Origin: Candidatus Omnitrophota bacterium
Lineage (GTDB): Bacteria > Omnitrophota > Gorgyraeia > Gygaellales > Profunditerraquicolaceae
Assembly (NCBI GenBank): GCA_028717885.1
Contig: JAQUMX010000001.1
Span: 1-42,408, forward strand
DNA length: 42,408 bases
Direction: 5' to 3'
Position numbers: made by a program. Below, in pieces: positions 9,001 to 12,000 of the stretch. Position 1 is the stretch's first letter. Each line of letters starts with the position of its first letter.

Positions 9001-12000
9001 CCACAATATCCTTGTCATCATCCACTACCAATATTTTATAAGCCATGTTGTTGCTCCTCCTACTTAAAGAACTTCCTTACCGTGGCTAGGTTGATTTGAT
9101 CAGACGTCTCATCGTCCTTTGGTGTTTCTAGGATAAACGCGCATTTTTTTAATTTCGGGCTGGTAACAATTCTCTTCATTCCTTCCTTGCCGATTGCGCC
9201 TTTGCCGATATGGTCATGCCGGTCATGATGGCACCCTAGTGTGCCTCGTGCGTCATTTAAATGAATGAGCTTAATCTGGTCTAACCCTACCAAATTTTCA
9301 ATTTCCTCTAAGGTATTTTTAAACCCTTCTTTAGTTGCCAAATCATAACCGGCTAAATAAGCATGGGCAGTGTCCAGGCAAAGAGCTACCCGTTCTTTTT
9401 GCTTAATTGCGTCCAGGACGCTTTTTTGATGGATAAATTTATACCCTAACCAGGAGCCTGAACCGGCAGTATTCTCCAGCAATATGCCTACCTTGGCAGC
9501 TTGAGTTTTTTCAATGATCGTGTTTAATGCTTCGATCAGGCGCTTAAGCCCTTCTTCTTCAGAGGTTTGCTTATGGCTGCCCATATGGGTAACAATATAA
9601 TCCGCTCCCAAGGCTGAAGCTTCCAGAATGTCCTCAATATAGGCAGCAATCGAAGCTTTGTATAATTTTACATCCGGCGAAGCCAGGTTGATTAAATAAG
9701 GAATGTGGATAAAAACCGGGCTGATTTTATATTTCTTCTGCTGGCTGCGGAATTCCGCAATTTCTTCCGCCGGAAGGCTACTCTGCCTCCATCTCTGAGG
9801 GTTACGGCTAAAAATCTGCATGGTATTACAGCCTAATTTAGCAGCTTGGCCAAATGCCTGGCTCAGCTTATTCACCCCGGAGATGTGCACGCCTAAACGC
9901 ATAAAATTATATTATACCTGAAGTAAATCCCTGGTCAAGGTTATAGTTGACACACCCTTGCGACGATGTTATATTTATAAAGCTAATTTGAAGGGTTTTG
10001 GGGCTGTAGCTCAGCTGGGAGAGCACTTGCATGGCATGCAAGGGGTCAGGGGTTCGATCCCCCTCAGCTCCACCAAAATTTTCCGACAAGGAAAATTTTG
10101 GTGGCACTAGAGCGAGCGTAAAACCGCGACAAGCGGTTTAGCGAGCGAAGTGCCTAATCATATTTTCCGACAAGGAAAATTTTGGTGGCACTAGAGCGAG
10201 CGTAAAACCGCGACAAGCGGTTTAGCGAGCGAAGTGCCTAATCATATTGCTCAATACGTAAAATTTGGTGGCACTAGCTATCAAATCTTTGCCGAAGTGG
10301 TGGAATGGCATACACGTCGGTCTCAAAAACCGATGAGCGTAAGCTCGTAAGGGTTCAACTCCCTTCTTCGGCACTAAAAAAGCTAGGTTTATCTTCAAGA
10401 TGAACCTAGCTTTTAAAATTGTGGAACCGGAAAAAAGTATTTATGAAAAGTTAGGGATGTTACAATACATACATCCATTCTGTGCTATTTGGCAGGCTTG
10501 GGCATAGCCCTGCGGATCGCCGCCATATTGAGATTGCTTACATACCTGTAAAATATCTTCTACTTTGCTTACTCTTCTCAACAAAAGAGTGAGCGCCGGC
10601 CTCACCCATTTCTTATCTTTCATCTCTTTTCCCCCTTTAAAATAAGCTGATTCTCTTTCAGGTAGGGCTCGATCTCGCGGTAAATCCTCTGGGCGATCAT
10701 GCGATAGCCGTTTTTATTCGGATGCAAAAAGTCGCTTTTCATGGAAGGGTTGGTAATAATTCCGCTTAAAATTTCCGGAATAAAGATAACTCCTTTTTCC
10801 CGGGCAAGTTTTTCTAATGCGCCATGGTACTCCGCAAGGAACATCCCGGCGCTAATATCTACCAACGCCACCATTGCCCCTTTTTCATGGATGCGGTCGA
10901 TCATCTGCGCAATATTCGCCATACTGGTTTCCAGCGGCACTTTTCTTAAAAAATCATTGCCGCCGAACTCAATAACCACTAATAAGGGGCTACGCTCCAG
11001 TACATCCGTATCCAGACGGGCAAGCGCTTCCGTGGTAGTGTCGCCGTCAATACCGGCATTGATTACCGGGCGGGTGGAAATCTCCAATAAAACAAGCGGG
11101 TAGGCATCCTGAGGGTTTGCGCCGTAACCAAATGTCAAGCTATCCCCGAAACAGATGATATTCGTACCTTTGGAATCTACGTTCTCAATCTCTCTTTTGG
11201 CGCATCCAGATAAGCCCATTAATAAAAAAAGGCATAGTAATAAACTTATGCCCTGTGCTTTGATGATTCTATCCTGCCACCTAGCTCTTTTCATATTTTA
11301 GCCTCAACTGTCCGCACGCGGCGTGGATGTCTTCTCCGCGCGACTTACGTAAAGTAGCGTTGATGCCTGATTTTAAAAGCGAGGTTTTAAAAGCTACGAT
11401 TTCTTTCTTCTCCGGAGGAAAAATCTTTAATTCTTCCACCGGATTTGCCGGAATCAGGTTTACCTTGCAATTCATCCTTTTAAGTATTTTACCTAAATTT
11501 AGCGCATTTTGCAAATCAGAATTTAATCCCTTGATTAAAATGTACTCAAAGGTAACCTGTCGGTTGGTTGCCTGGATATAATTTTTGCAGGCTGCGATCA
11601 ATTCTTGAAGCGGGTATTTCTTATTAATCGGCATAATCGAATCACGCGTACGGTTATCTGCGGCATGCAAAGACACGGATAATTCGATTTGCAGCCCCTC
11701 CTTCTCCAGTTGCCTAATCGCCGGAATAATTCCCGAAGTAGAAATCGTAATCCTGCGTGCGCCGATATTTAAGCTTTGCGGAGAATTAATAATCCGGATT
11801 GCTTTCAAAACATTTTCATAATTATCCAATGGCTCGCCTGTACCCATAAAAACCAAATGTGTAAGTTTACCATGTGAGTGGTTATTTAAAAACAGCGCTT
11901 GATCGATGATTTCCGCAGCAGAAAGGTTGCGCCGGAATCCGGCTACTCCGCTAGCACAAAAACTGCAAGCAAATTTACACCCTGCCTGCGAGGAAACACA

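What a model noticed while it worked through the whole genome (the two positions that open the first line are those of the whole stretch)
10000..10277. tRNA 3'-end-capping double-hairpin element
An 85-95 nt element begins inside the last bases of tRNA genes: a 15-bp stem with a 5-nt (mostly GACAA) loop whose left arm is the tRNA's own 3' end and whose right arm is its exact complement, followed by a nested second hairpin. It is likely a non-autonomous, single-stranded-DNA-folded mobile element that targets tRNA/tmRNA 3' ends and copies each target end into its first hairpin. That would be a new target-adaptive class of tRNA-specific insertion element, which also sequesters the CCA end of the pre-tRNA.
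Evidence so far: 8 copies at 5 tRNA loci here (C1:10064-10241 x2, C1:101750, C14:23255, C17:23480-23677 x2, C18:30115-30296 x2; call 146); in G008 after tRNA-Ile, Ser, Val and what reads as the tmRNA end beside smpB. One exact pattern found 56 loci in GTDB genomes, mostly labelled Omnitrophota; 38 of 56 have an ARAGORN tRNA within 45 nt upstream (9 tRNA types; flank only 150 nt) and 48 of 56 have a stem of 15 bp or more. On 36 of these copies: helix 1 paired in 100% of cells, 13 of 15 pairs with compensatory change, 1 G-U in 540 cells; 0/500 shuffles reach it, slid controls 30-50%. No Rfam match. Paper searches 134, 147, 148 listed nothing like it.
(Added by a program. Inside this text positions count along the whole contig: contig position 1 is position 1 of the stretch shown here. 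"Call 12" and the like, gene names such as g00115 and contig names such as C1 are that model's own, and its searches are not shown. The text may have been shortened before it was handed on; [...] marks where a part breaks off. The agent that wrote the report below was given it as the finding of a first reader that could run no searches.)

Follow-up and report, generated by a model that had tools for sequence, protein, structure and literature searches.

The report
tRNA-tail hairpin element, nuclease-linked
A gene-less, 83-95-base double-hairpin repeat sits right behind many tRNA and tmRNA genes of Omnitrophota bacteria, pairs with each gene's last bases and differs between close relatives at the same site; it is likely a tiny mobile DNA moved by a small GIY-YIG nuclease whose genes carry leaders of the same build, but the enzyme and the proposed copying of the target end are untested.

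Summary
Real. The genome holds 8 copies at 5 of 38 tRNA genes; 200 distinct copies were parsed from related genomes (27). Hairpin 1 is 15 bp; only its first 3-6 bases are tRNA, the next few resemble native trailers, the inner six are element-constant (102). Its variable outer pairs match in 96% of cells versus 49% permuted (105). The same tRNA site in 30 congeneric species is filled, truncated, swapped or empty (76), so it is not a conserved processing signal or terminator. New here: small UPF0213-type GIY-YIG genes lie next to tRNA genes in 50 of 112 cases (55), several behind leaders of the same build, four directly behind this element (72). Closest known: Ssn nucleases with NTS/SRM hairpins; the SRM motif is not met (0/147). 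Copying of the target end is plausible but unproven: 7 copies keep tandem G·A instead of the complement, and identical arms recur at different tRNAs. The scan noted this family (e1-1589070) and tRNA-GIY-YIG cassettes before on other DNA.

The parts
9947..9975 (+). sigma-70-like promoter of the tRNA-Ala / tRNA-Leu transcript (context)
   Evidence: 11 of 12 matches, extended -10; consensus match only
10000..10075 (+). tRNA-Ala(GGC), CCA encoded; target gene, intact
10070..10104 (+). hairpin 1 of copy 1: left arm 10070-10084 (first 6 nt = tRNA positions 71-76), GACAA loop 10085-10089, exact complement 10090-10104
10105..10152 (+). hairpin 2 of copy 1: outer CACT/AGTG stem, tandem G·A box on both sides, inner 7-bp stem with GACAA loop (10128-10132)
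10153..10161 (+). tail (C after the palindrome in 134 of 148 copies) and spacer to the next unit
10162..10245 (+). copy 2: exact 84-nt tandem unit; hairpin 1 reduced to 7 bp, right arm and hairpin 2 (10189-10236) complete
10260..10277 (+). remnant of a third unit (right arm plus start of hairpin 2)
   Evidence: 94% to the reference 18-mer
10291..10374 (+). tRNA-Leu(CAA), downstream in the same predicted transcript, no element (context)
10378..10414 (.). 18-bp inverted repeat with A/T ends, likely the transcript's terminator (context, not part of the element)
   Evidence: role inferred

Best explanation
This is a family of gene-less double-hairpin repeats lodged at the 3' ends of tRNA and tmRNA genes in part of the Omnitrophota, and it is likely the non-autonomous derivative of the leader of small tRNA-targeted GIY-YIG nuclease cassettes, moved as folded single-stranded DNA. 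Shown: fixed geometry (35-nt hairpin 1 that starts at a CC in the tRNA end, then hairpin 2 with tandem G·A boxes, then C); preference for tRNAs ending in CC; gain, loss, truncation and swapping at one site within a genus; GIY-YIG genes behind leaders of the same build. Inferred: a UPF0213/Ssn-like nuclease binds the oriented hairpin 2 on the sense strand and nicks a few bases away; the unit (inner left arm, loop, right arm, hairpin 2, tail, about 10 nt of donor flank) is joined at the tRNA end by host recombination/repair using the CC-plus-discriminator match, pushing older units downstream into tandems; the outer ~7 bases of the right arm are kept complementary to the local tRNA end by fold-back/template-switch synthesis, by choice of matching targets, or both. 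The tRNA stays intact, so the site is a safe haven.
For: Mobility: 30 species of one genus at tRNA-Ala(CGC)-ammeB show intact, flipped, truncated, sister, unrelated and short empty trailers; pairs 92% and 94% identical downstream carry different elements. Identical inner hairpins recur across genera and 12 of 20 repeated inner types occur with both A- and G-discriminator arms. Hairpin-1 pattern in 25 of 301 phylum genomes, patchy (17 of 46 in the own family, 4 of 8 in another). One complete copy sits without duplication in the anticodon loop of a duplicated tRNA-Gly half (L030) and one lies antisense inside another element (L055). Target rule: positions 71-72 are CC in 121 of 136 filled versus 103 of 242 other tRNA ends; in 55 of 55 copies whose tail starts CAT the next base equals the discriminator. 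DNA-level fold: 7 G·T, 5 A·C and 14 tandem G·A cells among 2205; 8 of 148 loops inverted, the signature of template switching per the abstract of PMC8604942. Enzyme: 50 of 112 small GIY-YIG ORFs lie within 400 nt behind or 300 nt before a same-strand tRNA; L265, L274, L406, L267 have tRNA end, 12-15-bp hairpin (imperfect in L267), tandem-G·A hairpin, then ATG, two with a 17-21-nt repeat of the tRNA end after the ORF; L267 has this element's CACT/AGTG frame and tail; ORF-less twins of the L265 leader exist (L020, L054); four of 20 members of a second clade lie directly behind GACAA-type arrays; strict tandem-G·A hairpins precede 11 of 146 such ORFs versus about 1 expected. The proteins keep the catalytic Y, G, R, H, E positions (roles recalled) and match UPF0213/Slx1 structures. 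SsnA, a small GIY-YIG protein, binds an oriented ssDNA hairpin, needs the C after it and cuts a few bases upstream (PMC11893778); 7 and 4 copies have outer stems like NTSvar and SRM.
Against: No nuclease gene is near most copies: among ~190 pattern loci with up to 2.5 kb flanks one GIY-YIG (1.7 kb away) and about 9 LAGLIDADG ORFs were seen. The four GACAA-led GIY-YIG genes are at one tRNA-Ser locus, three from one genus, do not form a resolved clade, and relatives at that locus lack the element, so adjacency may only reflect a shared tRNA cluster. That clade was not found in this genome (88% complete); its single small GIY-YIG gene has no leader and two RAYT-like Y1 genes are also present. Presence of that clade and of the element does not visibly covary (3-4 of 6 versus 17 of 46). 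A GIY-YIG nuclease cannot join DNA, so joining must be assumed from host repair. SRM motif absent in 0 of 147. No clean filled/empty allele pair. Copies from related genomes are not independent.
Confidence: 0.55

Rival explanations
1. Same mobile repeat, but moved by an HUH Y1 transposase (RAYT / IS200-IS605 type), with the right arm acting as a base-pairing guide that selects tRNA ends; GIY-YIG cassettes merely share the sites.
For: Two RAYT-like genes in this genome; precise, duplication-free insertion in L030; one-base retargeting (A/G discriminator) suits guide pairing; Y1 enzymes can both cut and join ssDNA hairpin ends (established knowledge, recalled; also PMC11893778 discussion).
Against: No Y1 ORF found near any of the pattern loci; the RAYT gene at L003 is flanked by a different repeat type; the leader architecture is tied to GIY-YIG genes, not Y1 genes.
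Confidence: 0.2
2. An RNA-level trailer: the hairpins act in the pre-tRNA as a processing or stability signal (masking bases 73-76 until cut) and spread by gene conversion between tRNA genes.
For: Nearly always sense and within the transcript; bases 73-76 are predicted paired at 0.92-1.0 while the acceptor stem still forms; also found behind other structured RNAs and in the 16S-23S spacer; tandem G·A is stable in RNA too (recalled).
Against: Absent, truncated or replaced at the same gene in close relatives; G·U not favoured over A·C (7 vs 5); loop inversions and an antisense copy; tandem arrays and decay; no terminator-like U tract and it lies between co-transcribed tRNAs.
Confidence: 0.12
3. 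Not independently mobile: each copy is the scar of a full GIY-YIG cassette that inserted at the tRNA end and then lost its ORF.
For: Leaders with and without ORF exist (L265 versus L020); truncated copies are common; arrays end 10-25 nt before an ATG in L420-L423.
Against: 200 ORF-less copies with uniform 83/85/92-nt length against four ORF-linked; exact tandem units; no ORF remnants seen behind most copies.
Confidence: 0.13

Closest known systems
Ssn nucleases (SsnA, CDD cd10448) with NTS / SRM hairpins (Chenal et al. 2025, PMC11893778; read: abstract, introduction, sections 6, 7, 8, 10, 12, 17; supplements not opened)
   Same: Small single-domain GIY-YIG gene beside oriented hairpin repeats that also occur ORF-less; strand-specific fold; conserved C right after the palindrome; a minority of copies share NTSvar- or SRM-like outer stems.
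   Different: No GTC tag and no SRM match (0 of 147); two hairpins, the first built from the target; strict tRNA/tmRNA 3'-end location (the paper's main text has no 'tRNA'); the linked proteins are UPF0213-like, 34% identical to an SRM-flanked protein; few copies per genome.
REP/BIME/REPIN with RAYT, and ORF-less IS200/IS605 derivatives (Di Nocera et al. 2013, PMC3733652: four passages seen; rest recalled)
   Same: Short non-coding palindromes, tandem arrays, discrete subfamilies shared across genera, ssDNA-type folds.
   Different: No GTAG/CGTC tag; confined to structured-RNA 3' ends; first hairpin overlaps and matches the target; no Y1 gene linked.
E. coli tRNA-linked repeats, TLR (Rudd 1999 as summarised in PMC8144298; passages seen)
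   Same: Repeats in tandem behind tRNA/rRNA genes, of unknown origin.
   Different: TLRs end in an 18-19-bp direct copy of the gene's 3' end; here the match is an inverted copy at the start, with only a 1-8-nt direct echo in the tail.
Integrative elements at tRNA 3' ends (tyrosine integrases; recalled) and free-standing GIY-YIG homing endonucleases (PMC1564403, passages seen)
   Same: tRNA end as safe site; the GIY-YIG cassettes show 13-21-nt direct repeats of the tRNA end.
   Different: No integrase, under 100 nt, no long direct repeat in the ORF-less element; nuclease is an 80-100-aa domain with no DNA-binding extension.

Membership tests
Ssn / SRM | Repeat matches the degenerate SRM search sequence | tested here: not met
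   0 of 147 copies, none in the window; positive in control loci L290 and L363 (not in L284, L302, L310, L335, L360)
Ssn / SRM | Small single-domain GIY-YIG gene flanked by the repeat | tested here: inconclusive
   4 of 20 genes of one clade lie directly behind the element, upstream side only, one locus; not in this genome
Ssn / SRM | Protein belongs to CDD cd10448 | not testable with these tools
   No CDD here; Pfam GIY-YIG 18 of 18, no NCBIfam hit, best structure UPF0213; separate branch from SRM-flanked proteins in a weakly resolved tree
Ssn / SRM | Strand-specific binding and cleavage of the repeat as ssDNA | not testable with these tools
   needs biochemistry
REP / RAYT | GTAG or CGTC tag at the foot of the palindrome | tested here: not met
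   bases before hairpin 2 are the GG end of hairpin 1; hairpin 1 starts at CC
REP / RAYT | Repeat flanks a Y1 transposase gene | tested here: not met
   own two genes; no hit in the pattern loci
E. coli TLR | 18-19-bp direct copy of the upstream gene's 3' end at the repeat's end | tested here: not met
   direct echo 0-8 nt, mean 1.8
Intrinsic terminator | GC hairpin followed by a U tract at a transcript end | tested here: not met
   none in 9880-10450; copies lie between co-oriented tRNA genes
Curated RNA family | Rfam match | tested here: not met
Non-autonomous mobile element (general) | Presence/absence or replacement at orthologous sites in close relatives | tested here: met
Non-autonomous mobile element (general) | Exact ends defined by a filled/empty allele pair | tested here: inconclusive
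   no clean pair; L030 suggests ends at arm start and AGTG

The most novel reading that the evidence does not exclude
A self-retargeting mini-element: an 80-100-aa GIY-YIG ssDNA nuclease nicks just upstream of hairpin 2, inside the right arm of hairpin 1, and the freed 3' end, folded back on the tRNA end, copies the last ~7 target bases into the element at each insertion. That would be a new mode of transposition with no transposase or integrase, in which the element rewrites its own guide from every new target, and it would supply the missing mobility mechanism for the widespread tRNA-lodged GIY-YIG cassettes and for Ssn/NTS repeats.
Probability: 0.22. Interest if true: 0.88.

Novelty: new variant of a known kind. 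Interest (0 to 1): 0.64.

Why it matters
How very small repeats spread without a transposase is open, and the Ssn paper leaves mobility of nuclease-plus-hairpin units as a hypothesis. This family gives a defined substrate (83-95 nt), a defined target (a CC at a tRNA end), hundreds of natural variants with three-way covariation, and named candidate enzymes, so the question becomes a simple oligo-cleavage and insertion assay. It would also yield new sequence-specific ssDNA nucleases and a tRNA-end-seeking insertion rule, and it explains the fast turnover of tRNA trailers in Omnitrophota.

Tried and rejected
Viral contigs: 0 hits with two patterns; 17 viral relatives of the L274 protein showed no such leader. 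LAGLIDADG genes near about 9 loci, mostly beside tRNA-Leu(CAA), none in this genome: not pursued. IS110 and reverse transcriptase not found in this 88%-complete genome. Primer-binding-site/retro idea rejected: complement to the mature tRNA is only 3-6 nt. Search for empty alleles by BLAST of flanks, by public contigs and in two close genome pairs (150 of 183 tRNA matches were listed, Ser/Leu under-sampled) gave no clean pair. Same-isoacceptor trailer test weak (31 of 55). The downstream control window was invalid (it holds inner loops of second units) and is not used. No RNA holder listed. Eight pattern hits belong to a different repeat (two on contigs labelled archaeal) and were left out with 30 other rows (stems one base off, displaced units) when going from 186 to 148. 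Paper searches listed no description of this element; subscription papers and supplements were not seen.

Full report
Observation. The window holds tRNA-Ala(GGC) at 10000-10075 and tRNA-Leu(CAA) at 10291-10374. A perfect 15-bp hairpin starts at 10070, inside the last six bases of tRNA-Ala, with a GACAA loop; a second hairpin follows at 10105-10152; an exact 84-nt unit is repeated once and an 18-nt remnant follows. The genome has 8 copies at 5 of 38 tRNA genes, and all 12 GACAA-loop hairpins of 6 bp or more in the assembly belong to them. Folding is far beyond shuffles. Rfam shows only the tRNAs. Public contigs support the tandems.

Family. Of 202 distinct matches 200 were parsed; 186 were not directly preceded by another copy; 119 of these have 15 of 15 pairs at a fixed 35-nt geometry and 148 have at least 13. 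The other 38 are 8 rows of a different repeat, stems one base longer or shorter, and displaced units. Of the 148, 115 follow an ARAGORN tRNA or tmRNA (11 amino acids plus tmRNA), 20 more follow a clear T-arm, and 13 follow something else, mostly unannotated structured ends or broken tRNA copies. A pattern for hairpin 1 alone, which left ten positions free, hit 25 of 301 phylum genomes, patchily and only in a few families of one class; in the 30 loci fetched 149 of 155 free positions were complementary.

What the first hairpin is made of. It starts at a CC: positions 71-72 in most tRNAs, 74-75 in His and some Cys, 70 in some Ser and Pro. tRNAs ending otherwise are mostly avoided (CC in 121 of 136 filled versus 103 of 242 other ends). 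Positions 74-77 have the base frequencies of empty trailers, 80-85 are element-constant. Arm positions 3-9 are paired in 95.6% of cells (129 of 149 perfect) versus 49% after permutation, and 97.8% versus 63.7% within isoacceptors; there are 102 different arms in 147 copies. The tail after hairpin 2 echoes the target too: in 55 of 55 tails starting CAT the next base is the discriminator, and the echo exceeds permutations even within discriminator class.

Copying or selection. For copying: the composition above; 8 of 148 loops are the reverse complement of the usual loop, which template switching between inverted arms produces (PMC8604942, abstract in the listing); 12 of 20 repeated inner-hairpin types occur with both discriminator classes. 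Against: 7 copies at Ser and Pro oppose GA with GA, two of them with a compensated neighbour, which strict copying would erase; 11 arms are shared by different tRNA types; in a 92%-identical pair two different elements diverge right after base 74; of 41 second units, 26 repeat the first right arm and 15 do not, and none has a full left arm. The tandem unit thus begins in the inner left arm. I read this as new units arriving at the tRNA end and pushing older ones downstream (inference). The matter is open.

DNA or RNA. Among 2205 hairpin-1 cells there are 7 G·T, 5 A·C and 14 tandem G·A; inner stems show 56 G·A/A·G cells and 13 G·T of about 1015. Tandem G·A makes the fold specific to the sense strand; the lack of G·U enrichment argues against selection on an RNA helix; GAA triloops closed by C-G, seen in some variants, are a DNA-stable motif (recalled). 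As RNA, the acceptor stem still forms (0.70) while bases 73-76 pair with the element (0.92-1.0). No terminator signature lies in the element, which sits between a promoter-like site and a second tRNA. One copy is antisense and one sits in a duplicated anticodon loop.

Mobility. At tRNA-Ala(CGC) before ammeB, 30 species of one genus show intact copies, one with a flipped loop, truncated copies, a sister element, unrelated elements and trailers of 9-34 nt. Pairs at 92% and 94% identity carry different occupants. A conserved processing signal would not behave so.

Enzyme. ORFs within 2.5 kb of the pattern loci were housekeeping apart from about 9 LAGLIDADG genes and one GIY-YIG gene. That gene sat behind a tRNA-Ser end between 17-bp direct repeats. 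A family-wide search (110 of the listed small-ORF places fetched) gave 112 small GIY-YIG ORFs, 50 beside a same-strand tRNA; my rough chance estimate is a few percent. Several have a leader built like the element: tRNA end, 12-15-bp hairpin whose right arm complements it, tandem-G·A hairpin, short spacer, ATG (L265, L274, L406; L267 with this element's outer frame and tail; L266, L271, L391 behind non-tRNA ends). ORF-less twins of the L265 leader occur. In a second clade, found in 20 of 201 family genomes, four genes lie right behind arrays of the GACAA-type element and about eight behind simpler leaders. The proteins are Pfam GIY-YIG, keep the expected catalytic positions, fold confidently (pLDDT 90) and match UPF0213 and Slx1. 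Caveats are serious: the four genes are one tRNA-Ser locus, three from one genus, unresolved in the tree; the clade was not found in this genome, whose one small GIY-YIG gene (68% identical to L274) has no leader; two RAYT-like genes are present.

Comparison. SsnA of Neisseria binds an oriented ssDNA hairpin, not its reverse strand, dsDNA or RNA, depends on the C after the palindrome and cuts a few bases upstream; its authors raise mobility only as a hypothesis and do not mention tRNA (PMC11893778). Here C follows the palindrome in 134 of 148 copies, and 7 and 4 copies have NTSvar-like and SRM-like outer stems, but the SRM motif matches 0 of 147. So it likely works like an Ssn/NTS pair and is not a member. 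It fails the defining tests for REP/RAYT, E. coli TLRs (PMC8144298) and terminators. If the nuclease cuts as SsnA does, the nick would fall in the outer right arm, exactly the part that mirrors the target; that is the basis of the novel case, and it is inference.

Novelty. Ten paper searches listed nothing like it; subscription papers and supplements were not seen. Verdict: real, likely mobile, new variant of the nuclease-plus-hairpin repeat kind; interest 0.64.

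Noticed in passing
L014, L016, L028 (3662), L125, L130, L232, L420, L451, L468: Copies sit behind unannotated structured ends with T-loop-like motifs and no Rfam match; at least three sequence types, likely undescribed Omnitrophota RNAs or broken tRNA copies.
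   Followed up: partly
L035 and L210, 16S-23S spacer: A copy lies upstream of tRNA-Ile, behind the 3' side of the 16S region; L035 has three copies with three different inner hairpins in one rRNA operon.
   Followed up: no
L006, L028, L061, L215, L340, L446: Sister family with an ATTAAT loop in hairpin 1 and a short plain second hairpin; swaps with the GACAA type at the same site.
   Followed up: partly
L012, L048, L103, L141, L051, L070, L166: Free-standing LAGLIDADG genes directly behind tRNA genes, repeatedly tRNA-Leu(CAA), the orthologue of the window's second tRNA.
   Followed up: no
L030, L064, L222: Small hairpin inserts at anticodon position 35/36 and in the T-loop of duplicated tRNA halves.
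   Followed up: no
L015, L016, L018, L207, L236: A second repeat type inserted inside or behind the element's second unit.
   Followed up: no
L078, L088, L136, L172, L173, L175, L176, L192: A different repeat sharing the hairpin-2 frame, not at tRNAs; two contigs are labelled archaeal; its upstream part recalls integron attC ends (recalled resemblance).
   Followed up: no
L269, L275, L352 and others: About 40 small GIY-YIG genes lie upstream of or overlap tRNA 5' ends, some between duplicated, hairpin-plugged 5' halves.
   Followed up: partly
G000:C43:5596-5780: tRNA-Arg(TCT) is followed by a tandem ~92-nt unit ending in a direct copy of the tRNA 3' end; a similar unit is present at tRNA-Arg in G477 and absent in G395.
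   Followed up: no
L265: The tRNA-Tyr carrying a GIY-YIG cassette also has a group I intron in its anticodon loop.
   Followed up: no
L003 (G000:C21:985-1575): RAYT-like Y1 gene flanked by ~30-nt inverted repeats of another type; one arm shares a 9-mer with this element's hairpin junction, probably chance.
   Followed up: no
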